Positions 6,656-62,620 of a stretch of DNA of 64,000 bases are shown piece by piece (position 1 is the stretch's first letter; each line of letters begins with the position of its first letter). Below the pieces are notes generated by a model. The model saw nothing but the letters and a program-made list of their open reading frames with translations. It was not told the origin of the DNA and did no database searches. Location of the stretch: positions 45,995 through 109,994 of IMG/VR virus record IMGVR_UViG_3300032275_000001; one strand, written 5' to 3'. The DNA comes from a virus (taxonomy: Duplodnaviria; Caudoviricetes). A program made the translations under genes and the position numbers.

Positions 6656-7825
6656 ATGGCTGATTTTTCATTAACCACGTTATTCGTGGTTCCAGTAGGG
6701 CAAGCAACGATCCCTAGCTCTGGTACGAGTTCAACACAAGACCTTACTGCAGGTATTGTGGGCATTTTTAGCAACAACTATGTTCCTGTTAATTCAGGTA
6801 CAATTGCTGCTTCTCCTTATTTCTACATTGCACAAGGAAGAGAAAACACTTACCTTCAAGGTTCTAAAAGATCTGATAAGATATCAGGTAAAAACAATGC
6901 TGGTACAGGAAGTAATGTAACTGAATGGTACAAAGTAACAGGATGCCCAACTGCGGCAAACCAAATTACTGATGTAACTAACTTCTCTGCACAATGTGGT
7001 GATACAATCACACTTACACTTCGTGCTGACAGTTCTTACCTTAGAACTCTTTATTTCAACGGATTTACACGTTCAGTAACTATTCAAGCACCTTGTTGTG
7101 ATTGTGGTGATGATCCATGTGTTGATGTTGATGTAAATGATTTGATTAATCAATTCATTGCAAAATTAACTGCACAAGCTCCTGGTATCAATCCTGACAA
7201 CATTAGCTTGAACAACTTCTACACATTTGAAAATTTTGATGGAACTACTCTGCGTATTACAGGAAAACCTTTAACTCAATATGGACAACCATGTGATGTT
7301 GCTGCGTTCCCTTTTGAATATGACAGAATGACTTTTAGAACTTTTGTATATGCTGGCCCAGCTACTACTGCTGACTTCATTGTTGCAGATTCTTGTAACA
7401 TTGTTGCTAATGCTGTCATCACTCAACGTTCTTCTTATGCTTCAGGACAAGCTGCAGAATTTATCCAATTGGAGAAAAACTTCTATAGCTACCAAGCTGG
7501 TTACTTGAAACACCTTTACAGAATGAATGGTTACAATGAGAACTTTGAGTCTTATGTTTCTGCTGGTAAAACTTATAATTCATTCTATATCAAATTTAAT
7601 GAATATGATAAGTCTGCTTACCAATGGGGTGATTATATCCAAGAAGATTCTACAGTGATTATTGCTATCCCTCAAGGTGGTTATGATCTTACTAGTGACT
7701 TCCAAGATATTTTAGAAGCTGCTTTAGGAACTGTTACAGATGGTAATGATTGTGTAATCACAACCACTACTACATCAACTGCTGCTCCTAGTACAACAAC
7801 AACATCTTCTACTAACATTCCTTAA
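6656..7825 (+). CDS. Putative auxiliary capsid protein with C-terminal Thr/Ser tail
   Basis: Highly-expressed codon bias, followed by a strong terminator, syntenic with the crAss-like auxiliary capsid gene. Ends ITTTTTSTAAPSTTTTSSTNIP. Confidence 0.6.
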   Translation: MADFSLTTLFVVPVGQATIPSSGTSSTQDLTAGIVGIFSNNYVPVNSGTIAASPYFYIAQGRENTYLQGSKRSDKISGKNNAGTGSNVTEWYKVTGCPTAANQITDVTNFSAQCGDTITLTLRADSSYLRTLYFNGFTRSVTIQAPCCDCGDDPCVDVDVNDLINQFIAKLTAQAPGINPDNISLNNFYTFENFDGTTLRITGKPLTQYGQPCDVAAFPFEYDRMTFRTFVYAGPATTADFIVADSCNIVANAVITQRSSYASGQAAEFIQLEKNFYSYQAGYLKHLYRMNGYNENFESYVSAGKTYNSFYIKFNEYDKSAYQWGDYIQEDSTVIIAIPQGGYDLTSDFQDILEAALGTVTDGNDCVITTTTTSTAAPSTTTTSSTNIP

Positions 7826-7857
7826 GGATAAGTAGAAAATAATAAATTCCTAGTATC

Positions 7858-7895
7858 AAGGGGAGATGAGTTAACAAACGCTCTCTCCCCTTTTT
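7858..7895 (+). terminator. Rho-independent terminator
   Basis: AAGGGGAGA(T)GAG ... CTCTCTCCCCTT followed by a T-run. Confidence 0.7.
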
Positions 7896-7917
7896 ATTAA
7901 CCTTCAAAAACAAAATC

Positions 7918-8481
7918 ATGGCAGATTTAAAATTAGATATAATTGTAGTACCTACATATAGTACATTGACACTTGGAGTGATGGACGCTTCAACCTATCC
8001 AACAGATCCACCAGATGTTGAGAGCCCATCTATAAAGATAACTGTTCCTGGATTTGGTGATACAACATTACCATTTGATATAAATTCATTTAATTTATAT
8101 ACCACTGCAAATCTTGGGATTACTGAAGTGGGTAGCGAACAACCTCTACCTGATGGAATATATAGATTACGTTATTCTATTGCACCAGCATATTTAAACT
8201 TTGTAGAAAGAACAATAATGCGTACAGAAAGAATACAAGAGAAGTTTGATAGAGCTTTTCTTCAATTGGATTTAATGGAATGTGATAGAGCAATTAAAAC
8301 ACAATCTACCGTTACATTAAACACAATCAACTTTTTTATACAAGGATCAATTGCTGCAGGTAATAACTGTGCTGAATATGAGGCAACTAGATTATATAAT
8401 CAAGCAGATAATATGTTAAATAGTTTTTTAAAATCTAACTGTGGTTGTTCAGGTAACAACTATCAAATTAATTTTAATTAA
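7918..8481 (+). CDS. Putative tail hub / fibre-attachment protein
   Basis: 187 aa with 'LPDGIY.L.YS' motif and C-terminal CGC; synteny. Confidence 0.5.
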   Translation: MADLKLDIIVVPTYSTLTLGVMDASTYPTDPPDVESPSIKITVPGFGDTTLPFDINSFNLYTTANLGITEVGSEQPLPDGIYRLRYSIAPAYLNFVERTIMRTERIQEKFDRAFLQLDLMECDRAIKTQSTVTLNTINFFIQGSIAAGNNCAEYEATRLYNQADNMLNSFLKSNCGCSGNNYQINFN

Positions 8482-8483
8482 TC

Positions 8484-8573
8484 ATGGCACAATGTAATTC
8501 ATGTGGAGCTAATGTAGGATGTGGATGTCAATTAAAAAATGGACTATGCGCTACATGCGCAGCTAAAAAATAA
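8484..8573 (+). CDS. 29-aa Cys-rich microprotein (not in ORF track)
   Basis: MAQCNSCGANVGCGCQLKNGLCATCAAKK; fills the gap between two genes exactly. Confidence 0.65.
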   Translation: MAQCNSCGANVGCGCQLKNGLCATCAAKK

Positions 8574-8578
8574 TAAAT

Positions 8579-10114
8579 ATGTTAACACCGAGACTAACTA
8601 ATTGTCCTGAATGTGCAGACATTCCTAATTTATTAAAAAGAATAGATTGTAAGTTAGCAGAATATGCTAATGGTCTATACAACAATGTTGTATTTATGTT
8701 GAATCAAGTTGTTCCTGCAAGAGCAATGATTCAACTTTTGGCGTATAAAAGAATCCTTACATACAAACAATGTAATCCAGACTATTTAAGTGATTTCTGT
8801 ATGGATAAGATTGTAAGTAAAGTGATAAGATTAACATTAGGCTGTAATATCAGACCCATTTTTACTCCAACCCCTACAACATCTACAACATCAACATCTA
8901 CTACTTGTCCTCCATATACCACTACCACTACCACTACAACAATATTATATAATTATATTGTACTTAAATGTAATACATCAGAATATTATATTCTTACATA
9001 TGATGGATCTGAATTATTACCACAAGGACTTATAGTAAGTAGTGAAAGTAATGAATGTTGGCAAATAATACAAAGAACTAATGATGTTGGAAGTATGGCA
9101 ATAGTTACACAATTTGGTATGGATGATTGTACAGTTTGTATAGATTCTTTTACTACTACAACTACTACCACCACTTTACCAAATATTCCATGTAATACAA
9201 CTTATAGTTCAGGAGGAAGTGGTGTTACAGAATATAATATACCATTAGATCCTTTAGGAGGAGTAATATTATTTCAATTTAGTGCTAGAAATGTACCTGA
9301 TAAAATTGAAATAATACATGATAATATTAAAAAATCTACATCAGGAATGTTATCAGATGGTAATTCAGGCCCATTTGATGCTTATGGAGAGCCACCAACT
9401 AATTTACCAACTGTTCTTCAAACATATGATATAAATCAATTTATAGGAAAAACTAATTATAATGTAGACCCTCCTATTTTTTATAAAAATATTCAACCTA
9501 TACCAACTAGACAATTAGAACTTTTAGCTGAAACAGGTATTGATTTAACATTAACAGGTAGTTATGAACAATTTGTATGGTGGGTATACACTCCATCAGA
9601 TTATACAATAAACAATAATGTTATTATTAGAATAACAGGTCCTGCAGGCGGTACAACAGGTTGGGATTTACAAAGATTATGTCCTTCACCTACCACTACT
9701 ACAACTACTACTATATGTCAAAGACCAGAAGGTTTAACTAATGGTAATTTAATTTCCTCTTGTCATAATTCAGGAGACCCTGAATGGATTTTCTATAATG
9801 TATCCGTAGAAGATGCTTGTAATGCTTTTAATTATTATAGAGATAATCCTGAAACTGCTGGAACAGGAGTTAATTATTGGGACATGCAATATGATACTTT
9901 AAATATAGACACTTTAGTATATAGATACAATAATGGTACTGATTGTACTTTAATTAATAATGGATATTATTGGTTTCAACCAAACATTAGTGATATAACA
10001 ACATATTTCAAAACTATTAATCAAATAAGTATTGTCACAATAGTAGCTGGATATATTACAGCAATTGACATATGTAATTATATTCCAACAACAACCACAA
10101 CAACAACAATATAA
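8579..10114 (+). CDS. Putative tail hub protein extended by Cys-bounded modules joined by poly-Thr linkers
   Basis: Helical Cys-containing N-terminal ~90 aa, then five Thr-rich tracts separating beta-rich modules. Confidence 0.55.
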   Translation: MLTPRLTNCPECADIPNLLKRIDCKLAEYANGLYNNVVFMLNQVVPARAMIQLLAYKRILTYKQCNPDYLSDFCMDKIVSKVIRLTLGCNIRPIFTPTPTTSTTSTSTTCPPYTTTTTTTTILYNYIVLKCNTSEYYILTYDGSELLPQGLIVSSESNECWQIIQRTNDVGSMAIVTQFGMDDCTVCIDSFTTTTTTTTLPNIPCNTTYSSGGSGVTEYNIPLDPLGGVILFQFSARNVPDKIEIIHDNIKKSTSGMLSDGNSGPFDAYGEPPTNLPTVLQTYDINQFIGKTNYNVDPPIFYKNIQPIPTRQLELLAETGIDLTLTGSYEQFVWWVYTPSDYTINNNVIIRITGPAGGTTGWDLQRLCPSPTTTTTTTICQRPEGLTNGNLISSCHNSGDPEWIFYNVSVEDACNAFNYYRDNPETAGTGVNYWDMQYDTLNIDTLVYRYNNGTDCTLINNGYYWFQPNISDITTYFKTINQISIVTIVAGYITAIDICNYIPTTTTTTTI

Positions 10115-10126
10115 AATAAATATAAT

Positions 10127-11293: not shown

Positions 11294-11299
11294 TAATAT

Positions 11300-12304: not shown

Positions 12305-12325
12305 TATAATAAAAACCAAATAATT

Positions 12326-12940
12326 ATGACAGTAATAATAACATTAACAACAGCAGGTGCAGATACAGGACCATTCAATCTATTTTCAGATGCAAATGAA
12401 TATACAATAGCATTTGCTATAGGAGTAACTAAAGCAGAATTAGAAGCAGGTTATCCATCTGATTTAGTTCCTGATGGTACAACAACAATTAAAGTACAAT
12501 CTGTTAATAGTTTATGTAATAATTTTGCAGATTTACCTACAGGTATAACTACAACAACCTCTACTACATTACCTCCAATTAACTCTGTAGAATAGCTTAC
12601 TGGTGATTATCCTCCTATTGCTTATGGTATTTCTCCTGGAGATATAATTAGCTTAAGTGGGACTGTTGAAATAATAGGGGACCCTGTTACTTTTAGAGCT
12701 TACGCATTTTTACCTACAGGACCTGGTGATGGTGCTGTAGATACTAGCATAAGTATAGGTAATATTGATGTGGAAATAACAAGTAGATATGTAGATGCTG
12801 TAACACCATATGATAATGGCATAAATCAATACTCTACTTCATTCACCCTTCCAGCAGGAATATATGATTGGAATGTACTTTGTACATTCTCTAATACAGC
12901 ATCTATAGGAGGAGAAGGTGGCATAGATTGGGTACAATAA
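12326..12940 (+). CDS. Thr-linker virion protein interrupted by one in-frame TAG (89 aa, or 204 aa with read-through)
   Basis: TAG at 12593-12595, then 114 further sense codons in the same frame to TAA at 12938-12940, filling the gap to the next gene. Confidence 0.65.
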
Positions 12941-12957
12941 TATAAAAATAAAACCAA

Positions 12958-14157
12958 ATGACAGTACTATTAACATTAACAACTGCTGGATCTGATACAG
13001 GTTCATTTGATCTATATTCTAATTTAGATTATGCTATTCCTTTTGAAACAGGAGTTGGTAAAGCTACATTAGAAGCAGGGTATTCAACAGAGGTTCCAGA
13101 TGGTGCAACTATTGTTAGAATTACATCTACAGGAGATTGTATTAATTCTGTAGATATAACATTAAGATTAGCTGAATGTGATTTAGATGGATATGTAGAA
13201 CAATTAACCACTACAACAACAACAACTATATGTATTCCCCAAACAATATATGCTGGAGAAACATATTATAAATCAGGAAATACAGCACTAGAGTCTGGAT
13301 TAAGAGTAAATAATTATGCTTCTTTTTATCCTAATGGAACTAAAGTATTTTTTACACAACATAATAATGGTTTAGCAGGAGGAAATCCTACAGGTATATA
13401 TGATCCAATTATATCATATGATTTAGCAACTCCATGGGATGTATCCTCTATCATTAAAACTGGAGAGTTACAGTCTTCTAATTCGCCTAATCAATGGTTT
13501 AGTACTCCAGCAGTTACGTCAAACTTAACAACATCTTATGGATCACCACTTGAAAACTTTACAGCAGGGCATACCTTTTCAGAAGATGGTACTAAATTAT
13601 TTACAGCTGGAAAAGATAAAGGATTGCTACAAAAATATACTTTAGGTACTGCTTGGGATATTACTACAATGATTTTTGATTCTTCTACATTAGAATATGT
13701 AGTAATTACAGGAGATAGTTTAACAGCAGTTAAATTTAGTAGTGATGGTTTAATTATGATATTGCTTGGAAATAGTATTACAGCAAGATATGAATTAGTT
13801 TCTCCTTGGGACATAATTGGTGCAACATTGATATTTACTTCTACTGGTAATTCTAGTGATATTGATTTTCAAAATGGTGGTTTATATTTATTTACATTTA
13901 GTGGATCTAATTTAGTTAGAAAAACTTTAGGAAGTCCATATGATATAACAACTATAATTGAAACTCAAACACTAATTACTACAGTAATTCCTCAAGCAAT
14001 ATCTCCAAGAATAGTATTTAAAGATGGATTTAAAGGATACATAAGTACATTTAATAGTTTAGAACCTAGTATAATTTCTGCATTTGAGTTAACATGTGAG
14101 TTTGATATTAGTGGTACTATTCCAACAACAACTACTACTACAACATTACTACTATAA
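12958..14157 (+). CDS. Thr-linker virion protein with beta-propeller-like repeat domain
   Basis: N-terminal domain paralogous to 12326; repeated 'F..DG.K.F...Y.L.TPWDI' blades; two poly-Thr tracts. Confidence 0.6.
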   Translation: MTVLLTLTTAGSDTGSFDLYSNLDYAIPFETGVGKATLEAGYSTEVPDGATIVRITSTGDCINSVDITLRLAECDLDGYVEQLTTTTTTTICIPQTIYAGETYYKSGNTALESGLRVNNYASFYPNGTKVFFTQHNNGLAGGNPTGIYDPIISYDLATPWDVSSIIKTGELQSSNSPNQWFSTPAVTSNLTTSYGSPLENFTAGHTFSEDGTKLFTAGKDKGLLQKYTLGTAWDITTMIFDSSTLEYVVITGDSLTAVKFSSDGLIMILLGNSITARYELVSPWDIIGATLIFTSTGNSSDIDFQNGGLYLFTFSGSNLVRKTLGSPYDITTIIETQTLITTVIPQAISPRIVFKDGFKGYISTFNSLEPSIISAFELTCEFDISGTIPTTTTTTTLLL

Positions 14158-14188
14158 AAAATCTGAGTTTGTTGGTTTTCTTAGATTT

Positions 14189-14216
14189 CCTCTCAATATA
14201 TTCTTGGGAGGTTTTT
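14189..14216 (+). terminator. Rho-independent terminator
   Basis: CCTCTCAA-TATATTC-TTGGGAGG followed by TTTTT. Confidence 0.65.
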
Positions 14217-14221
14217 GGTTT

Positions 14222-17926: not shown

Positions 17927-20900
17927 ATGGCTGAAGAACAATCACAAGGAAATATAAAACAAGAACTTAACAGTGCTAATATAGGGTTAAACCTAGATAG
18001 CACATTAAATCAAATTAAACAGGGCACGCTCACGTATGCCCTGAATGCTGCTTTAGAAAACTTTGATTCTTCCTCTGTCAACTATCAGAATGAACAAGGA
18101 AATGAATTTTGTGTAAAATTTCCAGAAGAATATGTATTAATAGGAACACATTTTATTAATGAGCAAAGTAAACATATATTCTTTATCACCAATCCAAATA
18201 CAGGAGATAGTGAAATAGGATATATGGATAACAATGATTGTATCTATCGTAAATTAGTTAATGCACCATGCCTTAATTTTAATGTTGACCATCCTATACA
18301 CAAAGCTGTACATAAAATTACAAATTGTACAACAGAAATATATTGGACAGATGGATTCAATCCTAGAAGATATTTAGATTTAAATGATATTCCATATATA
18401 TTAAAAAGTGAGTCTCCTCTTTGTGATCCTAAATATACAGATGAATTAGATTGTAATCAATTAAAACTACAACCTAATTTTAACATTCCAAACCTTGCTA
18501 TTGCAGATATTACTACAGGAGGTTCTCTTCTTGCTGGTACATATCAGTTTGCAGCACAGTATTCTGATGCTGTAGGTAATCCTTTCACTTCTTATTATTC
18601 AATCACCAATCCTACACCAATTGCTGATCCACAGATTGCAACAGTTAACTTTAACTATGTTGTAGGAAAGTCTATTGTTGTTGATGTAAGTAACTTAGAT
18701 TCTTCTGGACAGTTTCAATATTTTAATTTAGCTGTTATTAAAACAGTGAATGCAATTACATCTGTAGAATTAATTGGAACATATTTTATAGATAATACAT
18801 CTTTAAATATAACTTACACAGGACAGATTAATGATAACATTCGTTTATCAATGAATGATGTATTTGAGAAGTTTCCATATTATGATGTAGCAGAAGATTT
18901 AACAGCTGTACAAGACGTTCTTGTATGGGATGGACTTACATCTATAGATAGAATTAATTATCAATCCATAGCCACGCAAATAGATTTGTTGTGGGAAACA
19001 TATCAGATTCCTTCAAATGAAAACTATGCAGATGAATTAAATGCTACAAACCTTAGAGGATATCTTCGTGATGAAGTGTATGCATTTGAAATTGTATTCT
19101 TATTAAAGAATGGAAAACAAACAGATGGTTTCCATATTCCTGGTAGAACATTAACTATACAAGAACAATCTCTTCCAAATATTCATATTACTAATAATGA
19201 TTTTATTGGTGAACCAGAACCAGATACAGATTATAGTCCTTATTGGAAAATATATAATACAGCTTCTGTTATTGGTAATGCTACTGGAGATAAAATTGGT
19301 AATGCCACTCCATATGAATATGGTAATTTTGCATATTGGGAATCAACAGAAAAATATCCATGTAACATAGATCTTTGGGGAGCTCTAGCTGATCAACCAA
19401 TTAGACATCATAAGTTTCCAGATGTATTAGTTAGTCCTATTACACGACCAGCTGTGATATATGATCCTGCAAAGGGTCTTGCTCGTCAAAATAACTATGT
19501 ATATCCAATAGGAGTTAAAATAGATACAGCACAAGTCTATGATTTAATAGATACATCAAATTTAACATCAGATCAAAAAGCTGATATAGTAGGATATAAA
19601 ATAGTAAGAGGAGATAGAGGTACAAATAAATCTATTGTAGCAAAAGGTATTCTTCGTAATGTTGGAGAATATACAAGAGAAGAACAACCTTTTTATTTTC
19701 CTAACTATCCGTATAATGATATTACTGAAGATCCATTTCTTAATGCAAACAATAATGCTTGGTCAGATTTATGTGAAAGATTTATAATAAATGTATTAAA
19801 GCTACCTTCAAAAACAACACTTGGTGTACCTTGTTTAACAATAAGATATGTAAGTTGCAATAGTAATAAAGAATCAACTGAGGAATTTACAACAACAGGT
19901 ATTCATTATATTTGCTCTATAGGTAAACCAACTATAACAAGTCCTGGTGTAACTAATACAATTGATTATAGTCGTGGATGTAATCCAGTACCAAATATAT
20001 CTGATTCAAATTGTATAGGTACAGTTAGTTATGCTGATTATGATGTGTATAAAATAAGATCAGGAAATCATTGTGAATGGCCTGGTTTACAATGTTCTGG
20101 TTGGGGAGCAGAATGGGATGATCCAATTTCTGGACCAGGTGCATATGTATGGATGAAACCAGGTAATAGTTATTGTATACGTGTTAAAAAAGATCAAAAA
20201 CCTTATAGAGTAAGTGGTTCTAGTAAGTGCGGTTGTAATGACATTTCTTTACAATCTACAGTGAGAGATACATCTTGTGGAGCTGTTGCACCACTCACTC
20301 CTATATCAAACAATCCTTCTAGTACGTATAGACAAATATTTAATTCTCCAGAAACTTCTTTTGGTCAACCATTCTTAGGAGATATTCTTAAACTTGAGAA
20401 TGTAATGTTTGGTGCTGGTAAAGCACATTTTGTACCAGTTAAAAGTAATGCCAAGTATAGACTTCTTTCTAAAGAGGCACAAGAAGATGCTCTTGCTAGT
20501 TCCAATAGATTAGCTGCTTATACAAGTCCATTTAATTCCACTGCTATGTGGACAGCATACCAAGCATATTTACAAATATATATAAATGGTATAACTAGAA
20601 GAAACTATGCTTATTCATTTAACTCTACAGCTAGCTATGATTACAATGCAATAATTACTAATAGTGGAGATAAACAGAGAACATTAGATATTAAAAGATA
20701 TTTAATTCCAGGAGTACAAAATGTAGGTGATGATCGCAATGTGAATAACTATCAAAGAGAATCTTCTGTTTATTTAAAAACAGATGAATATAGAGAAGAT
20801 GGTACTACTTCAGTTGCACCATTACCATTTCCTAGTAATAGTACAGAGATGGCTAGTATAGGAATCAAAGATAGATCCAGACTCACTATAGGTGGTAGTG

Positions 20901-51967: not shown

Positions 51968-53653
51968 ATGAATCAATTTTGTGAAGCTATACCATGTCCT
52001 GTTATACTAAATTCTACCTGCGTATTCTACGAAGGAGCTAGTTTAGTATGTTCAGGAATCAATACTAATGATACCCTTGAGACTGTCATAGTTAAGTTAA
52101 ATCAAAAACTATGTAATGTTAGTGGAACATCTGGTACAAGTGGCACTAGTGGGACCAGTGGTACAGCAGGTACAAGTGGTCAAAATGGAGATAGATATAG
52201 AACAACTAGTACTGATGAATTTACATTAGGACAAGGAGGATCATTAAATGTTGATACATTCTTATCATACACTCCTGGACAATCTATTGTTATATCACAC
52301 AATGCATATAACTATCAAGAATGTATTGTTATTAATTATGATCCTTTAACAGGCATATTAAACTTTGAGTCTCCTACACAAGTTATTGGATCAGGAACAT
52401 TTGACTATTGGGATATAAACCTTGATGGTTCAACAGGTGGTGATGGATCTTCAGGAAGCTCTGGATCTTCTGGCACAACAGGTACCTCAGGAACATCAGG
52501 AACAAGAGGAACTTCTGGAAGCAGTGGTTCATCAGGTGTTAACGGAACTAGTGGAACTAGTGGTAGTAGTGGAAGTAGTAGTACGTCTGGTACTGCTGGT
52601 ACAAGTGGTACATCAGGAAATAATGGATTGGGTGGTAGCAGTGGTACATCTGGGACTAGTGGAACAAATGGAGCCAATGGTATAAATGGAACAAGTGGTA
52701 CTACAGGTACATCAGGTACTAGCGGAACAAGTGGTAACACTGGTTTAAATGGTAGTAATGGAACTTCTGGTACATCAGGCACAACAGGAACTAGTGGTAG
52801 TGATGGAAGTTCAGGCACATCGGGCACTACAGGAACTTCTGGTACTAGTGGTAGTTCAGGAACAAGCGGTACTTCAGGCAATGATGGTTCTTCTGGAACT
52901 AGTGGAACGTCAGGAACTAGTGCTACGTCTGGAACAAGTGGTACTAGTGGTGTAAATGGTATATCATCAGGACAGGTTTATTATTTTAATGAATCTATCA
53001 ATCAAACACCATATAAAGAATTTTCACCTATACCAACAAGTGAAATTCAACAAACTATAACTGCTACTATTGCAAATGGTGTAACATCAACTATTCAATC
53101 ATATTTAACACCTTCAACTTATCCGAATGTTTCAGTAATACCATTAGGTGTATGGTCATTCTACTTACACGCATATAAACAAAATAATAATGCAAGTTTT
53201 GATATATTCTGTGAAGTTTATAAAAGAACAACAGGAGGAGTTGAAACTTTATTATTTTCAACTGACCCATCACCTGTAACATCAAATTCACCAAATCCAT
53301 CAATGATATTATCTGATGGATTTCAGGCAGGATTTTCAATAAATACAACAGATAGAATATTAGTTAAAGTTAGAGCAACTAATACATCAAACCAATCACA
53401 TACAATTACCTTTGTTACTGAAGGAACAACTTATTATTCTTTTGCTCAAACAACATTAGGTGTAGTTAATAGTTCATCTGGTACTAGTGGATCTTCAGGA
53501 ACTTCTGGTAGTAATGGTTCAAGTGGAAGTAATGGTAGTTCTGGAACAAATGGAAGTAATGGATCTTCAGGTACTAGTGGAACAGCAGGAAACAATGATG
53601 GAAACTCAGATTATTTACTTATGGTAAGTTTTAGAACATTATATAATTATTAA
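51968..53653 (+). CDS. Fibre-like protein with long Gly-Thr-Ser (G-X-Y) repeats
   Basis: Cys-rich N-terminal anchor like 10127 and 11300; three (GTS/GSS)n blocks separated by beta domains. Confidence 0.7.
   Translation: MNQFCEAIPCPVILNSTCVFYEGASLVCSGINTNDTLETVIVKLNQKLCNVSGTSGTSGTSGTSGTAGTSGQNGDRYRTTSTDEFTLGQGGSLNVDTFLSYTPGQSIVISHNAYNYQECIVINYDPLTGILNFESPTQVIGSGTFDYWDINLDGSTGGDGSSGSSGSSGTTGTSGTSGTRGTSGSSGSSGVNGTSGTSGSSGSSSTSGTAGTSGTSGNNGLGGSSGTSGTSGTNGANGINGTSGTTGTSGTSGTSGNTGLNGSNGTSGTSGTTGTSGSDGSSGTSGTTGTSGTSGSSGTSGTSGNDGSSGTSGTSGTSATSGTSGTSGVNGISSGQVYYFNESINQTPYKEFSPIPTSEIQQTITATIANGVTSTIQSYLTPSTYPNVSVIPLGVWSFYLHAYKQNNNASFDIFCEVYKRTTGGVETLLFSTDPSPVTSNSPNPSMILSDGFQAGFSINTTDRILVKVRATNTSNQSHTITFVTEGTTYYSFAQTTLGVVNSSSGTSGSSGTSGSNGSSGSNGSSGTNGSNGSSGTSGTAGNNDGNSDYLLMVSFRTLYNY
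52438..52965 (+). repeat. Degenerate 9-bp coding repeat (GGN-ACN-TCN/AGY)n
   Basis: About 55-60 G-X-Y triplets with heavy synonymous variation; shorter blocks near 52121-52182 and 53471-53600. Confidence 0.9.
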
Positions 53654-55410: not shown

Positions 55411-55670
55411 ATAAATTTATAGAAGAAAGATGGTACATGCATCTAATAGGTGGGGCTATTACAGTAACACCAATTATTTGGTTGTTGATTAAATTTGATC
55501 CTTCCTTTGATATAGGTAAAATTGCTCAAGTATTTATTGCTGGGTTATTTGCTTATTTTATAGGATTTACATGGGAATGGTACAATGGAAAATACCACGA
55601 AGCACCTTTTGATTGGAATGATATAGCATTTACAATGCTAGGAGCAATTATAGGAACAATATTATTATAA
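55407..55670 (+). CDS. Small membrane protein (about 3 TM)
   Basis: Hydrophobic segments with H..G, WE and DWND motifs. Confidence 0.6.
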   Translation: MNKFIEERWYMHLIGGAITVTPIIWLLIKFDPSFDIGKIAQVFIAGLFAYFIGFTWEWYNGKYHEAPFDWNDIAFTMLGAIIGTILL

Positions 55671-55820: not shown

Positions 55821-55843
55821 AAACCCTCTATACGAGGGTTTTT
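55821..55843. terminator. Bidirectional terminator between convergent units
   Basis: AAACCCTC-TATAC-GAGGGTTT followed by TT. Confidence 0.65.
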
Positions 55844-58806
55844 ATTATTTCTATTACCATGTTTGGTGTCACACTATTCTGACATTCAAACTGTCTCTCT
55901 GTGCCTTCATGCAATGGACACCAGTTCCAATTTGATTTATCAAACTTATATTCTGGTTTATTCCAACATCCATGGCATACATTTGTATTGATTGGTCTAT
56001 GACATGTAAACTCATGATCTTTATCAGTGAAATTACTGATCATTATCACTGGTACATCTAATCCCCAGGCCAACCAACTGAGACCTGAACTTAAACCTAT
56101 AAAGAATTCACTTTGTGCTATCCATTTTATCGTACTCTCAACTGATTTATCAAGTAATGGATCACAGTTGTCAAATGGATTGTTTTCTAGTGATACATTC
56201 TTCACTGTATACTCTTGATCATGTAGATAGTTAATTACTTCTTGCCAAGCTTCTCTGGGCCAGAACTTACAGCCTGATGTACTATTTGTAGCTATTGTAA
56301 CTAGTTTATGATTTACTTTAAGTCCTGAGTTATGTACACTAGGTTTGATTTCTATATAATCAAGACCTAGAATGTTTGTAGCTGTCTTTTGTAAAGGAAT
56401 TGTATTAGGAAGAACAGGTTCTTTATTATCATTATAGAACCAACCTAACTTATACATTGCATACAGATTGTTAAATACATATCCTGGTTCCACAAACTCA
56501 AGCTCTGTATAAGTGTCAAGTATATTGTTCCAAAAACTTGACACAATCACATGGCAATTGTGTTTCTTTTTAAACTCAAGAGCGTACGGTATCCAAGCTA
56601 ATGTATCTCCTAATGAAAAACTATCAAAAGCAATGTACACTCTCTTGTCTGTCAAATCTATTATCTTATTGTACACTTCCACACCATCCTTGTACACTAT
56701 AGTTTGCCATGTAGTAAAGTATTCTCTGTTAAGTTTTATCCAATGATTGCACTTTATTGTATCATAATGAACTAACTTTTGTGTTTCTACATCATGAAAC
56801 TCTACATCAAATGTACTATCACTGGTTCCTGTTATTTCAAGGAATGGTTGTCCAACAAAATTTTGTATGATATTATAATCATTTACAGGCTTTTTGTTTG
56901 GAATAACGGACATTGCTTTCTCATATAATGACATGTGATCTTTAGCAAAATCATCAGTTGTATTATTAGTTAGTATATGATAATTTGTATGATCTGTTAA
57001 CATATCTTCTACTTGACGTTTTAGTTTTTTAGGATCTAGAGTTGTAATATATCTAGTAAACATATTTTTATATTGAGGAAGATCTCTAGCAATAATTTTT
57101 TTACCAAAACTAATAGCTTCTCTTAATACTAATGGATTACATTCCCATGTAGAGTTAAACATAACTATATCAGCAGCCATTATAAAATATTTAGCATCAT
57201 CTCGTTCTCCCCATATCTTTACATTATCTGGAACATCATTCATAAGTGGTTCCCAATAGTCTTGAAAGTTACCAGCTTGATTACCTATAAAATGAAATCC
57301 TACATCTGGCATTTGTTTAGCTAATTCAAGCATCTCACCTTGGTTCTTTCCAGGAGTCCATAAACCAACATTTACAACATGTTTCATTTTAAGATTCATA
57401 CCAAGAGCTATCTTAGCTTCATAACAATCATCTTCTGAAACTCTATAGTTATCAATAGGAAACTCAATCACTTCTTTATAATATCCTTCTACATTAGCAA
57501 ATGTATCTAAGTGATAAGGAGTGCAGAAAGCGTATGCATCAGGTGTAAATATCTTATTAGCAGGATTAAAAGAAACATCATGGCAAGTCTCAACTATCCT
57601 ATATTTCCTATCAGGAGAGTAAAGTCTTCTTACCATTTTAGGATCTAGTCTTTCAGACATCTCATCTATGTGTATAATGTCTGGTTTAAACTCATCTACA
57701 GCCTTGAAGATTCTCATCTTATCTTCATTTAATGTATATAAGCCTGTAAGCTTTATAATTTCATCTCTCTGTACAACATAATCTTTGCTGTAACATTGAT
57801 ATTCTACCACTTGAATTGATACATTTGGCAGAGTTTGCAACGCTTGTATTCTCTTAAGAAGGAATGCTGGCATACCACCTGTAGATAGGTGAGGAGCAAG
57901 GAATAGGATTTTTAGTTTAGACATTGGTTTAAATATTTTAGACATTATTTTAGACATTTGAACTGGATCTTTCTCTCCATGTAGGAATAGTAATTGTTCT
58001 TTACACTCTGGTAACCTGAACCAACTCTCAACATGTTTGCCCCAGTTATCTTCATTGTATATCCTATCTAGCTTATCAAGACCAGTGTTAGTGTATATAT
58101 AAGGAAGACCTTGATGTATATTATATTTCCACAATAGCACATTTACTATTGTTTCTTCGTGATAGGGAGCATAGATTTGTGGATTATTAAGAACAATAGG
58201 ATGCGTGCACATCCAATACCACTCATCTAGAAATGATATAGTGTTCTTACCAGCTACAAAGTAACCAGTTTGTCTATATCTTTCTCTTACATATTGATTT
58301 ACATTGAATAAGTCACATGCTGGATGTTCTAGTGTTGTAGAGAGATCATCTTTGCTATCAGCTCCTCCTCTTCCATTAATATGTAGATAGTCATATATAC
58401 CTTCTACAAAATATGGATGTCCACATTCAGTGTTATACATATCAAATATACTATCTATGTATTGTGTAGCAATTGAATCAGAATCTACATAACATATTGT
58501 ATCAGCAAAGTTCTCAAGAGCATGCTTAACTACAAGAGGTCTTTGAATTAATAACTTGTATACATTAGGATTGTTTCTGTCTATATAATCAGCTTTGACT
58601 GAATAGTCAACATCACATTCCCAATAGACAGTGTTAGCTCCAGGAACCTCTCTGTGATCATCTAGCATATACACTGTGATTGGTATATTGCTAAACTGTT
58701 GAATGCTCTCTACAGCCATACATACAGTGCTGTAATAAGATGCGTTTGCATATAAAACATACATTTTATCTGCTTTTATATGTTCATACGTATAACTATC
58801 GGACAT
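55828..58806 (-). CDS. Three-domain glycosyltransferase: GT-A (DxD) + GT4-like GT-B + Aah/TibC-type protein O-heptosyltransferase
   Basis: YVDSDS; KILFLAPHLSTGGM...NSTWECNPLVLREA; KRVYI.FDS.SLGDTLAW.PY..EF.KKHNC, FIGLSSGLSWLAW and CHGCWN...WCPLHEGTERQFEC. Start taken at ATG 58806, just after a minus-strand TATCTTTG box. Confidence 0.85.
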   Translation of the reverse strand: MSDSYTYEHIKADKMYVLYANASYYSTVCMAVESIQQFSNIPITVYMLDDHREVPGANTVYWECDVDYSVKADYIDRNNPNVYKLLIQRPLVVKHALENFADTICYVDSDSIATQYIDSIFDMYNTECGHPYFVEGIYDYLHINGRGGADSKDDLSTTLEHPACDLFNVNQYVRERYRQTGYFVAGKNTISFLDEWYWMCTHPIVLNNPQIYAPYHEETIVNVLLWKYNIHQGLPYIYTNTGLDKLDRIYNEDNWGKHVESWFRLPECKEQLLFLHGEKDPVQMSKIMSKIFKPMSKLKILFLAPHLSTGGMPAFLLKRIQALQTLPNVSIQVVEYQCYSKDYVVQRDEIIKLTGLYTLNEDKMRIFKAVDEFKPDIIHIDEMSERLDPKMVRRLYSPDRKYRIVETCHDVSFNPANKIFTPDAYAFCTPYHLDTFANVEGYYKEVIEFPIDNYRVSEDDCYEAKIALGMNLKMKHVVNVGLWTPGKNQGEMLELAKQMPDVGFHFIGNQAGNFQDYWEPLMNDVPDNVKIWGERDDAKYFIMAADIVMFNSTWECNPLVLREAISFGKKIIARDLPQYKNMFTRYITTLDPKKLKRQVEDMLTDHTNYHILTNNTTDDFAKDHMSLYEKAMSVIPNKKPVNDYNIIQNFVGQPFLEITGTSDSTFDVEFHDVETQKLVHYDTIKCNHWIKLNREYFTTWQTIVYKDGVEVYNKIIDLTDKRVYIAFDSFSLGDTLAWIPYALEFKKKHNCHVIVSSFWNNILDTYTELEFVEPGYVFNNLYAMYKLGWFYNDNKEPVLPNTIPLQKTATNILGLDYIEIKPSVHNSGLKVNHKLVTIATNSTSGCKFWPREAWQEVINYLHDQEYTVKNVSLENNPFDNCDPLLDKSVESTIKWIAQSEFFIGLSSGLSWLAWGLDVPVIMISNFTDKDHEFTCHRPINTNVCHGCWNKPEYKFDKSNWNWCPLHEGTERQFECQNSVTPNMVIEIIKTLV

Positions 58807-58824
58807 AGGTTTGATTTTTAAAAA

Positions 58825-58915
58825 CAAAGATATAAAAATATATTTAGCTTATGCTATATTATGAAGGAAATCTCATCAGACCATTTTATTATATGGAATA
58901 TATGATTTATATTTG
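58825..58915. promoter_or_regulatory. Divergent promoters flanking a GCTATATTAT motif
   Basis: Minus-strand TATCTTTG (58832-58825), GCTATATTAT 58853-58862, plus-strand TATATTTG 58908-58915. Confidence 0.6.
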
Positions 58916-60808: not shown

Positions 60809-60832
60809 TAACTACCAAACAAACAATCAATT

Positions 60833-60973
60833 ATGGCAATACCAGCTAAACAAGTCGGCCAATCAGCAGAAGCAAATCTTTTGTGGCAAATATCTAAGCA
60901 GTTGGAACTTTTAATTAAAGTGACAGCAGCTAACAATCCTACTACCACTACCACTACCACTCCTGCCCCTTAA
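60833..60973 (+). CDS. 46-aa microprotein with poly-Thr tail (not in ORF track)
   Basis: MAIPAKQVGQSAEANLLWQISKQLELLIKVTAANNPTTTTTTTPAP. Confidence 0.7.
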   Translation: MAIPAKQVGQSAEANLLWQISKQLELLIKVTAANNPTTTTTTTPAP

Positions 60974-61006
60974 TTGCAAAATTAAAACATAATAAACCAA
61001 CTACAT

Positions 61007-62023
61007 ATGAAAGATTTAAAATTTGTGCAAGCTTGCCCAAGTGATGTATATTATACATGGCAAGTTCATTTATGGCTTGAAAGCTTAAGAAACATTGGAC
61101 ATAGTGATAAAGCTATATCAGTGATATTCACACCTAAGGGAAGAGAGAATAGAGACAAATGGAAACAGATAGAAGACCTCTATCCAGAATCAGAGTTTCA
61201 TTATTACAATGATGAAGACAATTTAAATCAACTACTAGGGATATATATCCCTGTACTAAGACCATATGTACTTTGGAAACATTTCAAAGCTAATCCAGAA
61301 CTAAGTGAGAAAGCAATATTCTATTGTGATTCAGATATTCTGTTCACTAAAGATTTCAATGTAGATGAGTTCTTAGATGATGATGTTAACTACCTATCAG
61401 ATACAAACAGCTACATCAATGCTACATATTTTGATAGTAAAATAAGAGATGTTCTCTCAGAGAAGCTAGAAGCATACAAAACAAGAGATGTTCTTGGAGA
61501 AATAGCTAGTGTTATTGGTATAGATAGAGCAACATGTGAAGCTAACAACCTACACTCAGGAGGAGCACAATATCTACTAAAGAATGTAGATGGTGAGTTC
61601 TGGAGTAAGGTGATGAATGATTGCATTCTTATTAGAACCTATTTACAAACAGTGAATAGAGAATATTTTAAAGATGAGAATACAGGATATCAATCATGGT
61701 GTGCAGATATGTGGGCTGTTCTTTGGAACTTATGGTTTAGAGAACAAGAAACAAAAGTGGTTCCTGAACTAGCATTCACCTGGGCAACAGATCCTATATC
61801 TAAACTAGACAGTCATACAATCTTTCATAATGCAGGAATAACAGGAGTATCAATGAATGGATATCCTTGTTTCTACAAAGGAAAATATCATCAAGGAACT
61901 GACCCTACAAAAGATCCACACTTAGATGATGTATTAAATAACACAGAATCACAGAAGTATTGCACATGGTTCTATGCAAATGAACTAAATAACATAAAAA
62001 ATAAATATAACCTTAATTATTAA
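61007..62023 (+). CDS. GT-A glycosyltransferase resembling plant peptidyl O-glycosyltransferases (HPAT / SGT1)
   Basis: YYTWQ, YIPVLRPYVLWKHF, YCDSDILF (DxD) and WCADMWA occur in the same order as the HPAT/SGT1 motifs. Confidence 0.7.
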   Translation: MKDLKFVQACPSDVYYTWQVHLWLESLRNIGHSDKAISVIFTPKGRENRDKWKQIEDLYPESEFHYYNDEDNLNQLLGIYIPVLRPYVLWKHFKANPELSEKAIFYCDSDILFTKDFNVDEFLDDDVNYLSDTNSYINATYFDSKIRDVLSEKLEAYKTRDVLGEIASVIGIDRATCEANNLHSGGAQYLLKNVDGEFWSKVMNDCILIRTYLQTVNREYFKDENTGYQSWCADMWAVLWNLWFREQETKVVPELAFTWATDPISKLDSHTIFHNAGITGVSMNGYPCFYKGKYHQGTDPTKDPHLDDVLNNTESQKYCTWFYANELNNIKNKYNLNY

Positions 62024-62028
62024 ATATC

Positions 62029-62433
62029 ATGAACAAACGTGACTTAAAAGCGTATTCACGCTTCGATGGAACTGGTAGAATTGTACCAGGAAGTACTGTA
62101 CTTAGACGTCAAAAACCTAAAGTGGGAAATTGGAAAGAAGTTCCAGCATATGAATGCTGTAATGATGTAACATTAACATTTACACCTTCTTCTCCAATAA
62201 TTAGCGATGTAACATTAAGACTTTTTTGTAATGGTACACAGATAAATTATTTGTATACACCAAGTGATTCTACTACTATTGAATCATTAGTTAATATATT
62301 AAATAATACATTTAATGTATTAGGAACATTTACAAATCCTAGTGGAAACATTATCCAACTAGTAATGAGTGGTGCACAAAAAACTGCACTATGTCCTGTA
62401 GGAACATTAACATTTGATGTTATTGCTGACTAA
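62029..62433 (+). CDS. Hypothetical protein whose N-terminal 45-aa domain is shared with the next ORF
   Basis: LKAY.RFDG.GR.V.GS..LR..KPKVG.W.E..AY.CCN followed by a variable beta domain. Confidence 0.65.
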   Translation: MNKRDLKAYSRFDGTGRIVPGSTVLRRQKPKVGNWKEVPAYECCNDVTLTFTPSSPIISDVTLRLFCNGTQINYLYTPSDSTTIESLVNILNNTFNVLGTFTNPSGNIIQLVMSGAQKTALCPVGTLTFDVIAD

Positions 62434-62446
62434 TTAAAAAAATAGG

Positions 62447-62620
62447 ATGAACAGTAGACCTTTAAAAGCTTATGTAAGATTTGATGGATCTGGACGTGTA
62501 GTCTCAGGTAGTCTTATATTGCGCAAAAACAAACCAAAGGTGGGTAAGTGGCAAGAGATTACAGCATATCAGTGTTGTAATCCAACCACTAGTACAACTA
62601 CAACATCACCAACACCTTAA
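62447..62620 (+). CDS. 57-aa paralog with Thr/Ser/Pro tail (not in ORF track)
   Basis: MNSRPLKAYVRFDGSGRVVSGSLILRKNKPKVGKWQEITAYQCCNPTTSTTTTSPTP. Confidence 0.75.
   Translation: MNSRPLKAYVRFDGSGRVVSGSLILRKNKPKVGKWQEITAYQCCNPTTSTTTTSPTP

What the first reader, a model, noticed from the sequence alone, without database searches (positions are those of the whole stretch)
6656..62620. Candidate phage-encoded protein O-glycosylation system building a mucin-like glycan coat on a crAss-like virion
Seen: about 14 poly-Thr or Thr-Ser tracts occur on seven proteins (6656 C-tail, 8579, 12326, 12958, 17927, 60833, 62447), and long GTS repeats on an eighth (51968). None are obvious in the portal fragment, MCP, cargo proteins or RNAP. 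The window also encodes four glycosyltransferase domains in two genes. Established: Aah/TibC heptosyltransferases and plant HPAT/SGT1 are both families that put the first sugar on hydroxy-amino acids in repetitive protein tracts. Inference: the phage glycosylates Thr/Ser tracts on its capsid decoration, hub, muzzle and fibre proteins, with the extra GT-A and GT4 domains elongating the glycans. Possible roles are shielding, stiffening linkers or adhesion. Virion glycosylation is known in some mycobacteriophages; I know of no description for crAss-like phages or with these enzyme families. No nucleotide-sugar synthesis genes are visible here, so host donors are implied.
Basis: partly seen in the sequence, partly recalled or inferred. 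Interest (0 to 1): 0.9.

Follow-up and report, generated by a model that had tools for sequence, protein, structure and literature searches.

The report
Phage sugar-coating enzymes with threonine tags
This uncultured crAss-like phage carries two sugar-adding enzyme genes that travel, across many unrelated phages, with seven-threonine tags and with a proline-free collagen-like fibre, so its particle is probably sugar-coated, though nobody has measured a sugar on it.

Summary
In detail: 14 Thr/Ser tracts lie on seven ORFs, there is none in the 46-kb replication half, and there is a Gly-Thr-Ser collagen-like fibre.

The reading is partly supported and needs splitting into two systems.

1. The 338-aa gene (61007-62023) is a GT8-like retaining GT-A.
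   - It is present in 10 of 10 near-complete relatives.
   - In all 10 of these genomes (the window's own and nine relatives) it is flanked by mini-proteins of a conserved family, Thr-tailed in nine.
   - Its homologues sit beside capsid or tail-tube genes ending in poly-Thr tails in 10 of 10 cultured phages examined.
   - Four syntenic Streptococcus phages without it lack the tails.
   - Thr runs peak sharply at seven residues.

2. The 999-aa enzyme ends in a true TibC/Aah domain (TIGR04414, 254 bits against a cut-off of 200).
   - It is accessory, found in 3 of 10 relatives.
   - It does not track the Thr tracts.
   - It tracks proline-free Ser/Thr collagen-like fibres: 4 of 4 genomes with it against 0 of 6 without.

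No sugar has been shown. The plant HPAT/SGT1 kinship is unsupported. This scan has already noted both pairings on other DNA.

The parts
6656..7825 (+). 389-aa virion protein just downstream of the capsid genes, ending in a two-part Thr tail (nt 7760-7780 and 7790-7813). Probable glycan acceptor.
   Evidence: Tracts. The tail is kept in the orthologue of 9 of 9 relatives, two-part in 8 and a single T7 in G010, at 68-75% identity. Weak lead to crAss_AuxCP PF25650 (score 0.85, lead only). phrog_15060, function unknown.
8579..10114 (+). 511-aa modular protein with five Thr tracts (nt 8876-8905, 8918-8941, 9152-9175, 9692-9712, 10088-10108). The tracts separate Cys-bracketed modules, and the last one forms a C-terminal tail.
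   Evidence: Orthologues carry 0-5 tracts. No Pfam or PHROG family.
12326..12595 (+). 89-aa ORF made of an adaptor-like N-domain plus a TTTTSTT tract (nt 12548-12568).
   Evidence: The best hits in 9 of 9 relatives carry 1-4 tracts.
12958..14157 (+). 399-aa paralogue with the same N-domain, a T7 linker (nt 13207-13227), a variable distal domain and a T7 C-tail (nt 14125-14145).
   Evidence: Orthologues in 9 of 9 relatives carry 1-2 tracts, while their distal parts differ.
17927..23206 (+). Muzzle protein (1759 aa) with two tracts near its C-terminal modules (nt 22487-22540 and 22982-23005).
   Evidence: PF25731 crAss_MUZ, 105 bits against a cut-off of 27. phrog_37948. 2-4 tracts in 9 of 9 orthologues.
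51968..53653 (+). Proline-free Gly-Thr-Ser collagen-like fibre (561 aa). Proposed acceptor of the TibC-type enzyme.
   Evidence: PF01391, E 3e-30. Tail-fibre PHROGs. GXY tracts are T 0.21, S 0.30, P 0.00. This type is found in 4 of 4 genomes with the TibC-type gene and 0 of 6 without.
55828..58827 (-). Three-domain glycosyltransferase, probable start ATG at 58806. It has an N-terminal DxD domain (about aa 8-300; its fold class is inferred), a GT4 domain (about aa 305-640) and a complete TibC/Aah-type protein O-glycosyltransferase (about aa 660-999).
   Evidence: PF00534 and PF13692. TibC 4rap, E 7e-43. Foldseek TMt 0.81-0.84, rmsd 2.5. TIGR04414, 254.4 bits against 200. Invariant G733-D734 and C944, C947, C963, C975 in 20 homologues.
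60833..60973 (+). 46-aa mini-protein (family A) ending P-T7-PAP, just upstream of the GT-A gene.
   Evidence: Same family and position, with T7-T8 tails, in G002, G006, G008 and G009.
61007..62023 (+). 338-aa GT8-like retaining GT-A glycosyltransferase with DxD at D108/D110. Proposed poly-Thr O-glycosyltransferase.
   Evidence: AF2 pLDDT 97.3. Foldseek and VIA matches: glycogenin Z 14.3, LgtC 14.0, GlyE 13.1. Invariant D108 and D110 in 72 sequences. Present in 10 of 10 relatives. phrog_4417.
62029..62433 (+). 134-aa protein with the family-B N-domain joined directly to a globular C-domain, with no Thr tract here. Relatives have a Thr linker at this junction.
62447..62620 (+). 57-aa mini-protein (family B): a conserved 45-aa N-domain ending CCN, then a P-TTSTTTTS tail.
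   Evidence: Alignment of 10 members from 8 genomes shows 68-82% identity in the N-domain and variable tails of 1-3 Thr modules.

Best explanation
The phage carries two separate, cytoplasmic protein O-glycosylation systems. Both act on its own virion proteins before or during assembly and draw on host nucleotide sugars.

System 1 (core)
- The enzyme is the 338-aa GT8-like retaining GT-A (61007-62023).
- It puts sugar on the hydroxyls of short poly-Thr units, typically Pro-Thr7 followed by a hydrophobic residue.
- These units occur as C-terminal tails, as linkers between an anchor domain and a variable distal domain, and as the whole tail of dedicated 45-95-aa mini-proteins encoded on either side of the enzyme gene.

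System 2 (accessory, swapped in and out with the fibre module)
- The enzyme is the three-domain protein at 55828-58827.
- Its TibC/Aah-type domain starts glycans on Ser/Thr of the proline-free Gly-Thr-Ser collagen-like fibre (51968-53653).
- Its GT4 and N-terminal domains extend those glycans. Some relatives have a fourth, SAM-methyltransferase domain that would methylate them.

Shown: the tracts, their conservation, the enzyme folds and family membership, and the co-occurrence patterns.

Inferred: that sugar is transferred to these proteins at all, which enzyme starts and which extends, the identity of the sugars, and what the coat is for (shielding, linker stiffening or adhesion).
For: GT-A identity
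- AF2 pLDDT is 97.3.
- GT8-type retaining enzymes top both structure searches. Foldseek gives glycogenin at E 1.7e-6.
- VIA gives glycogenin Z 14.3, Skp1 alpha-galactosyltransferase 14.3, LgtC 14.0, GlyE of the pneumococcal serine-rich-repeat pathway 13.1 and PBCV-1 capsid-glycosylating A64R 11.2.
- D108 and D110 are invariant in 72 homologues.
- Longer family members are fused to GT2, GT6, Gly_transf_sug or methyltransferase domains in 5 of 10 scanned.

Link to Thr tracts inside this phage group
- The gene is in 10 of 10 near-complete relatives.
- In all 10 genomes compared (the window's own and nine relatives) mini-proteins of a conserved family lie next to it, with Thr tails in nine and a short T5 run in the tenth.
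- Tracts are kept at the same places in orthologues at 56-75% identity.
- Thr-run lengths over the 10 genomes are T4 21, T5 38, T6 16, T7 87, T8 13, T9 1, a sharp mode at seven.
- Pro precedes 83 of 173 tracts.

Link across unrelated phages
- tblastn finds the enzyme in 77 INPHARED records, mostly Firmicutes siphophages.
- I picked 10 of them by hand for diversity. In all 10, T>=5 runs lie in virion genes in the fetched stretch. In nine of them the enzyme gene directly follows the tail-tube, capsid or another Thr-tract-bearing gene.
- A jumbo-phage lineage from IMG/VR shows the same pattern.
- Pro precedes 26 of 61 of these runs.

Controls
- Four Streptococcus phages have the same gene order and MCPs 60-69% identical to phiFL1A's.
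- They have no such enzyme and no T>=5 run.
- Their capsid and tail-tube proteins stop where the phiFL1A tails begin.
- Leptolyngbya phage Lbo-JY46, the nearest cultured MCP relative, has neither feature in 36 kb.

TibC-type enzyme
- phmmer to TibC gives E 7e-43 over 302 residues.
- The model superposes on nearly all of TibC: TMt 0.81-0.84, rmsd 2.5 A, about 368 columns.
- It passes the curated TIGR04414 cut-off, 254.4 bits against 200.
- The LGD Asp and four Cys are invariant in 20 homologues.

Link to the fibre
- 19 of 28 IMG/VR loci holding the enzyme have a Gly-Thr/Ser collagen-like ORF in the flank. Most of the 9 misses are cut short on that side.
- Among 10 whole genomes the proline-free Ser/Thr type occurs in 4 of 4 with the enzyme and 0 of 6 without. 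My hand Fisher value is 1/210.
- In Microcystis phage Mel-JY01 a TibC domain ends a 1227-aa enzyme next to a structural protein that is 26% Ser/Thr.
Against: - No glycan has been seen on any protein of this phage or of any phage carrying these enzymes. Everything rests on co-occurrence and fold.
- Within the crAss-like group the GT-A is universal, so no within-group correlation can be tested. The cross-lineage test used 10 records chosen by hand out of 77 and five controls, not a census.
- GT8 enzymes closest in fold include elongating enzymes such as GlyE and LgtC, so the GT-A might extend rather than start a glycan.
- The fibre and the TibC-type gene lie in the same variable module. Their 4-of-4 against 0-of-6 pattern could reflect linkage and shared ancestry: 10 related genomes are not 10 independent events.
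- If any collagen-like ORF is counted rather than the Ser/Thr type, the split is 4 of 4 against 5 of 6, with Fisher p 1.0.
- One full-flank locus with the enzyme (L013) shows no collagen-like ORF.
- Whether the unknown host makes TibC's own donor (ADP-heptose, as named in the title of PDB entry 4rb4) was not tested. No heptose-pathway gene was found among the ORFs scanned.
- Poly-Thr tracts flanked by Cys (113 of 173) would also work as plain linkers.
Confidence: 0.65

Rival explanations
1. The Thr tracts are plain, unmodified linkers and tails. They would serve as stiff or flexible spacers between disulfide-braced modules, and as short DNA homologies that let modules be swapped. The glycosyltransferases would act on something else.
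For: - Most internal tracts sit between an anchor domain and a variable distal domain, and the distal domains differ between relatives.
- Cys lies within 10 residues of 113 of 173 tracts. From the 1.24% Cys frequency I expect about 22% (my arithmetic).
- No sugar has been measured.
Against: - It does not explain why bare tails with nothing attached exist: 47 of 173 tracts lie within 12 residues of a C-terminus.
- It does not explain why the tails appear only where the GT-A gene is present in otherwise syntenic phages.
- It does not explain why mini-proteins that are little more than an anchor plus a tail flank the enzyme gene.
- The mixed codons argue against slippage as the source of the tracts.
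Confidence: 0.15
2. One enzyme starts a glycan on the Thr tracts, and the domains of the 999-aa protein extend the same glycan. All tract-bearing proteins and the fibre would then carry one kind of coat.
For: - Both enzyme genes lie within 6 kb of each other and of the fibre.
- Multi-domain enzymes of this kind usually build oligosaccharides.
- GT8 relatives such as GlyE extend glycans that another enzyme started.
Against: - The 999-aa gene is absent from 7 of 10 near-complete relatives.
- The six of those sequenced in full carry 12-22 tracts, against 14-34 in carriers.
- Firmicutes phages with Thr tails carry the GT-A alone. For example, none of the other 60 annotated features of phiFL1A is named as a glycosyltransferase.
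- The 999-aa gene tracks the Ser/Thr collagen-like fibre instead.
Confidence: 0.12
3. The enzymes modify a non-protein target: phage DNA, as the T4 glucosyltransferases do, or host envelope glycans, as seroconverting phages do.
For: Phage glycosyltransferases are best known for these roles, as stated in passages of PMC12619734. GT4 and GT8 folds are common in envelope synthesis.
Against: - The C-terminal domain passes the equivalog model for the protein-directed TibC/Aah enzymes, not the LPS heptosyltransferases. TIGR02193 scores 24 bits against a cut-off of 185.
- The GT-A sits inside head-tail operons of small temperate siphophages.
- No base-hypermodification gene turned up among the 20 largest replication-module ORFs.
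- Neither target explains the co-occurrence with Thr tails.
Confidence: 0.06

Closest known systems
Virion O-glycosylation of mycobacteriophages (Freeman et al. 2023, Cell Host Microbe 31:1216)
   Same: Phage-encoded glycosyltransferases, with glycans on the C-termini of capsid and tail-tube subunits. I know this from passages in citing papers (PMC12619734; PMC12894461; PMC12691614). The layout found here in Firmicutes phages matches it: enzyme gene plus tails on capsid and tail tube.
   Different: - The paper itself is not held, so its enzyme families and tail sequences are known to me only from recall.
- No Mycobacterium phage is among the 77 records matching the GT-A.
- Here the tags are also internal linkers and mini-protein tails.
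- The host group and virion type (crAss-like podovirus) differ.
- There is a second, TibC-type system.
- Glycosylation is proven there and only inferred here.
TibC-TibA and Aah-AIDA-I of E. coli (autotransporter O-heptosyltransferases, TIGR04414; PDB 4rap, 4rb4)
   Same: - The C-terminal 330 residues pass the curated family model.
- They superpose on nearly the whole TibC chain.
- They keep the LGD motif and the four Cys.
- Both are cytoplasmic enzymes acting on Ser in a repetitive protein.
   Different: - Here the domain is fused behind two, and in relatives three, further enzyme domains.
- It is phage-encoded.
- There is no autotransporter. The nearest repetitive protein is a proline-free collagen-like fibre.
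- Donor sugar and oligomeric state are unknown.
GT8-type retaining GT-A enzymes: glycogenin, LgtC, GlyE of the pneumococcal PsrP pathway, Skp1 alpha-galactosyltransferase
   Same: Fold (Z 13-14.3 over 212-239 aligned residues) and the DxD motif. Several of these act on proteins or protein-bound glycans in the cytoplasm.
   Different: Sequence identity is 8-12%. There is no Pfam or NCBIfam hit. It is a family of its own (phrog_4417, 'unknown function').
Glycosylated collagen-like proteins: BclA of the Bacillus anthracis exosporium, Mimivirus collagen-like fibres (recalled, not checked in any call)
   Same: Gly-X-Thr type collagen-like repeats carrying O-glycans on a surface fibre.
   Different: Different enzymes. 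The repeats here are proline-free Gly-Thr-Ser. This is a recalled analogy only.
PBCV-1 A64R, the chlorovirus glycosyltransferase for the major capsid protein (PDB 2p6w)
   Same: A virus-encoded GT-A that glycosylates the virus's own capsid. Fold match Z 11.2.
   Different: It ranks lower than the GT8 enzymes. It comes from a eukaryotic virus and is described as making N-linked glycans (recalled).

Membership tests
TibC/Aah autotransporter O-heptosyltransferases (BAHT, TIGR04414) | Scores above the curated equivalog cut-off over the whole model | tested here: met
   254.4 bits against a cut-off of 200. Residues 663-990 match profile positions 26-373 of 374.
TibC/Aah autotransporter O-heptosyltransferases (BAHT, TIGR04414) | Same three-dimensional architecture as solved TibC | tested here: met
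   Foldseek E 6e-27, TMt 0.81-0.84, rmsd 2.5 A, about 368 columns of a 380-390-residue chain. The model's mean pLDDT is 84.2.
TibC/Aah autotransporter O-heptosyltransferases (BAHT, TIGR04414) | LGD motif with the catalytic Asp, and the four-Cys iron finger (the role of these residues is recalled, not from a call) | tested here: met
   SLGD aligns with TibC LGD, and four Cys align with TibC's. G733, D734, C944, C947, C963 and C975 are invariant in 20 homologues.
TibC/Aah autotransporter O-heptosyltransferases (BAHT, TIGR04414) | Uses ADP-heptose and acts on an autotransporter passenger domain | not testable with these tools
   No autotransporter is present in the window. No heptose-pathway gene was found in the ORFs scanned. 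Donor and acceptor need bench work.
GT-A fold glycosyltransferases, GT8-like retaining clan | Rossmann-like GT-A fold with a DxD metal-binding motif | tested here: met
   pLDDT 97.3. Glycogenin, LgtC, UGGT and GlyE score Z 13-14.3 and Foldseek E about 2e-6. D108 and D110 are invariant.
Plant HPAT (GT95) and SGT1 (GT96) peptidyl O-glycosyltransferases | Detectable sequence or structural kinship with these families | tested here: inconclusive
No Pfam or NCBIfam family at E up to 10 and 0.01 respectively. No such entry appears among the structure matches listed. I do not know whether models or solved structures of these families are in the libraries.
Mycobacteriophage-type virion glycosylation system | Phage-encoded glycosyltransferase together with Ser/Thr-rich tails on exposed virion proteins | tested here: met
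Mycobacteriophage-type virion glycosylation system | O-linked glycans demonstrated on the virion proteins | not testable with these tools
   Needs glyco-staining or mass spectrometry. There is no isolate of this phage.
Collagen triple-helix repeat proteins | Long uninterrupted Gly-X-Y repeats | tested here: met
   PF01391, 104 bits against a cut-off of 27.2. 225 residues lie in runs of at least 8 triplets. The repeats contain no proline, unlike classical collagen.
crAss-like phages | Signature virion genes | tested here: inconclusive
   The muzzle protein PF25731 is met, 105 bits against 27. The portal and MCP PHROG hits are generic. The two giant ORFs have no Pfam family. The nearest cultured MCP is a Leptolyngbya phage at 26% identity.

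The most novel reading that the evidence does not exclude
Pro-Thr7 is a portable, length-quantised glycosylation tag read by one GT8-like enzyme family in phages of at least three bacterial phyla.

This crAss-like lineage has gone further than the others:
- It uses the tag as a universal joint between anchor domains and swappable distal domains.
- It encodes dedicated 'mini-mucins', a 45-aa anchor plus one to three tags, beside the enzyme gene.
- It runs a second, orthogonal code on the same particle: a TibC-type enzyme acting on a proline-free Gly-Thr-Ser collagen-like fibre.

If this is right, virion glycosylation is a common, sequence-predictable trait of environmental and gut phages and not a peculiarity of mycobacteriophages.
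Probability: 0.35. Interest if true: 0.85.

Novelty: new variant of a known kind. Interest (0 to 1): 0.72.

Why it matters
The only demonstration of glycosylated phage particles cited in the passages I read concerns mycobacteriophages.

If the reading here is right:
- An abundant environmental phage group is sugar-coated. Its MCP was found at 94-99% identity in the best 80 loci kept, out of at least 599 matching stretches in IMG/VR.
- Many phages of enterococci, lactobacilli, lactococci, staphylococci and clostridia are sugar-coated by the same enzyme family.
- The acceptor can be read straight from the sequence.

That would bear on several questions:
- how phages stick to mucus and surfaces;
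- how they resist proteases;
- how antibodies see them;
- how phage particles might be made to carry defined glycans.

It also gives a clean bench test with cultured, harmless phages, and it gives a function to a PHROG currently labelled 'unknown'.

Tried and rejected
Structure and complex prediction
- Complex prediction of the GT-A with the 57-aa mini-protein gave no verdict. It counts neither way.
- The N-terminal domain of the 999-aa protein has no Pfam hit at E up to 10.
- Against the GT-A family alignment, hhalign gave only a 31-column match around the DxD, at 8.9% probability.
- The whole-protein Foldseek list was filled by the other two domains.

Thr tracts against the TibC-type gene
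- I tested whether tract count follows the gene. It does not, so I rejected that reading.
- My first orthologue table suggested that G008, which lacks the gene, has the fibre. The composition check showed that hit to be a short proline-type collagen-like protein. The script's Fisher test on 'any collagen-like ORF' gave p 1.0.

Literature
- Nine searches found no paper linking poly-Thr tails to a glycosyltransferase in phages, and no paper on glycosylation of crAss-like virions.
- From these I saw listings and abstract starts only. I read passages of PMC8402811, PMC12619734, PMC6821194, PMC12894461 and PMC12691614.
- PMC8402811 concerns host glycolipid on a cystovirus and does not bear on this finding.
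- PMC12894461 reports no glycoprotein stain on ten other phages.
- Freeman et al. 2023 is not held. What I say of it comes from citing passages and recall.
- Supplements were not consulted.

Searches that added little
- P0192 had no match in viral contigs.
- The Atlas look-up for 6656 gave only a lead at 0.85.
- The two giant ORFs have no Pfam family.

Full report
**What the window is**

The window is the right-hand 64 kb of a single 109,994-bp phage contig. It runs as follows:
- end of the portal gene, then MCP (phrog_11589);
- virion proteins, then a muzzle protein (PF25731, 105 bits);
- very large ORFs;
- a variable fibre and accessory region.

The left 46 kb encodes RecA, primase, helicases, a family-A DNA polymerase and endonuclease VII. 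The muzzle hit supports 'crAss-like'. The giant ORFs have no Pfam family. The nearest cultured MCP is that of a Leptolyngbya phage at 26% identity. The host is unknown.

The group is abundant. The MCP scan matched at least 599 stretches in IMG/VR, and the best 80 kept were 94-99% identical to the window's MCP.

**The observation**

All 14 tracts on seven ORFs are real, and none lies in the replication half.
- They are written in mixed Thr codons, with ACC enriched.
- They are far beyond chance. Thr is 7.6% of codons, so by my arithmetic a T7 run is expected less than 0.001 times per genome.
- The fibre at 51968 is a proline-free Gly-Thr-Ser collagen-like protein.

**The tracts are under selection**

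I fetched nine near-complete relatives whole and compared them with the window's genome.
- Every genome has 12-34 tracts on 6-12 proteins.
- Orthologues at 56-75% identity keep them. The 6656 protein ends in a Thr tail in 9 of 9 relatives, two-part in 8 and a single T7 in G010. The muzzle has 2-4 tracts in 9 of 9.
- Thr-run lengths pooled over the ten genomes are T3 143, T4 21, T5 38, T6 16, T7 87, T8 13, T9 1. No other residue tested shows such a second peak.
- Pro precedes 83 of 173 tracts, and V, L, A or I follows 120 of them.
- 47 tracts lie within 12 residues of a C-terminus.
- 113 have a Cys within 10 residues.

The unit is thus Pro-Thr7-hydrophobic. It is used both as a tail and as a joint between a conserved anchor domain and a variable distal domain.

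**The 338-aa enzyme**

- It has no Pfam, NCBIfam or PDB sequence match.
- It belongs to phrog_4417, 'unknown function'.
- It has 763 cluster representatives at E up to 0.001 in the representative library.
- With 72 of these the AF2 model reaches pLDDT 97.3.
- Both structure searches put it among retaining GT8-type GT-A enzymes.
- D108 and D110 (DxD) are invariant.
- Of ten longer family members scanned, five are fused to other glycosyltransferase or methyltransferase domains.

**Its link to the Thr tags**

Inside the group, the gene is present in 10 of 10 relatives. Small proteins flank it in all 10 genomes compared (the window's own and nine relatives):
- Family A is 45-56 aa, lies upstream and is seen in 5 genomes.
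- Family B is 56-95 aa, lies downstream and is seen in 9 of 10 genomes, often twice.
- Each has a conserved N-domain followed by one to three Thr modules.
- The tenth genome, G001, has a 150-aa neighbour with a T5 run and a 127-aa one with TTTSTTT instead.

Outside the group, tblastn finds the enzyme in 77 cultured-phage records: Lactobacillus 23, Enterococcus 21, Staphylococcus 11, Lactococcus 8 and others, plus one Chryseobacterium phage. I chose ten for diversity. In all ten, virion proteins in the fetched stretch carry T5-T12 runs, mostly as C-terminal tails on capsid, tail tube, portal or head proteins. In nine of the ten the enzyme gene directly follows the tail-tube, capsid or another Thr-tract-bearing gene; in nattely the nearest tract-bearing gene lies one gene further upstream. 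A jumbo-phage lineage reached through a 33%-identical family member shows five T6 tracts in the next gene.

The reverse holds too.
- Four Streptococcus phages have the same head-tail gene order as phiFL1A, and their MCPs are 60-69% identical to it.
- They have no such enzyme and no T>=5 run.
- Their capsid and tail-tube proteins end exactly where the phiFL1A tails begin.
- The Leptolyngbya phage has neither feature.

This joint gain and loss is the strongest argument that the enzyme acts on the tags. The sample is small and hand-picked.

**The 999-aa enzyme**

- Its last 330 residues are a true TibC/Aah enzyme by sequence (E 7e-43), by curated model (254 bits against 200) and by structure (TMt 0.81-0.84).
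- The LGD motif and four Cys are invariant.
- A GT4 domain precedes it.
- Before that lies a DxD domain whose fold class I could only infer.
- Relatives exist as two-domain, three-domain and four-domain forms. The four-domain forms carry an added N-terminal domain with a SAM-methyltransferase-like ILDVG motif.

The gene is accessory. It is in 3 of 10 relatives, one of them with it split into two genes. It does not follow the Thr tracts.

It does follow the fibre:
- 19 of 28 loci holding it have a Gly-Thr/Ser collagen-like ORF nearby, usually the next large gene on the other strand. Most misses are truncated loci, and L013 is a real exception.
- Among the ten whole genomes, the proline-free Ser/Thr type is in 4 of 4 carriers and 0 of 6 non-carriers.
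- Five of the six non-carriers have only short proline-containing collagen-like tracts.

Linkage within one variable module could produce this pattern, so I hold this half at lower confidence than the first.

**Mechanism proposed**

There are two cytoplasmic systems using host donors:
1. GT8-like enzyme onto Pro-Thr7 tags.
2. TibC-type initiation with GT4 and DxD-domain extension onto the Gly-Thr-Ser fibre.

Donor sugars, glycan structures and the benefit to the phage are open.

**Relation to what is known**

- Virion glycosylation by phage enzymes on capsid and tail-tube C-termini is established for mycobacteriophages. I read this only in citing passages; the paper itself is not held.
- My nine literature searches found nothing on these enzyme families, on poly-Thr tags or on crAss-like virions.
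- Earlier AI notes of this scan had already recorded both pairings on other DNA: the GT-A with poly-Thr tails in Enterococcus and Clostridium phages, and TibC-type enzymes with Ser/Thr collagen-like fibres in large phages.
- I read those notes after reaching the same conclusions. I took from them only the TIGR04414 lead.

New here are:
- both systems in one crAss-like genome;
- the tags as internal joints;
- the seven-residue quantisation;
- the mini-protein cassette.

**Verdict**

This is a new variant of a known kind. It is of real interest but unproven at the bench.

Noticed in passing
L188:8469-9210 and L191:9137-9926: In Staphylococcus phage PT1-4 and Arcanobacterium phage TPWB06 the tail-tube gene ends in a Thr tail. 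An overlapping ORF in another frame carries four or five more Pro-Thr6-7 modules. A programmed frameshift may therefore make a longer, more heavily tagged tube subunit.
   Followed up: no
window 6656-23206 and relatives G001-G010: Cys lies within 10 residues of 113 of 173 Thr tracts. From the 1.24% Cys frequency I expect about 22%. This suggests disulfide-braced modules on either side of the tags.
   Followed up: partly
window 896-1633, 24022-24714, 26736-27431: Homing-endonuclease-like ORFs (HNH PHROG hit for the first) are present in only some of the nine relatives. They interrupt otherwise conserved virion genes.
   Followed up: no
window 54131-55204: A DUF285 ('Mycoplasma') repeat protein (PF03382, E 9e-74) lies between the fibre and the TibC-type gene. 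It has no counterpart in any of the nine relatives. The same is true of 53667-54116 and 55407-55670.
   Followed up: no
window 62631-63044: A DUF5856 / phrog_858 'starvation-inducible transcriptional regulator'-like protein directly follows the enzyme and mini-protein cassette. It has a counterpart in 9 of 9 relatives, lying close downstream of the cassette in eight.
   Followed up: no
L007, L010, L012, L013, L014, L018, L021, L109: Homologues of the 999-aa enzyme carry an extra N-terminal domain of about 160 aa with an ILDVG motif typical of SAM methyltransferases. This makes a four-domain enzyme. The domain was not scanned against a family library.
   Followed up: partly
L192:3065-8430 (Microcystis phage Mel-JY01): A TibC-type domain ends a 1227-aa protein annotated 'methyltransferase FkbM'. 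The gene before it is a 'structural protein' that is 26% Ser/Thr, with ISSS and SGS repeats. A cytidylyltransferase-like gene lies 3 kb further on.
   Followed up: partly
window 3069-4631 versus 27421-51882: The MCP is 93-98% identical across the nine relatives, while the cargo-sized and giant proteins fall to 26-73%. The difference in divergence within one genome is strong.
   Followed up: no
window 12326-12940: The 89-aa ORF stops shortly after its Thr tract, while its paralogue at 12958 continues into a distal domain. Another note of this scan proposes read-through of that stop. I did not examine this.
   Followed up: no
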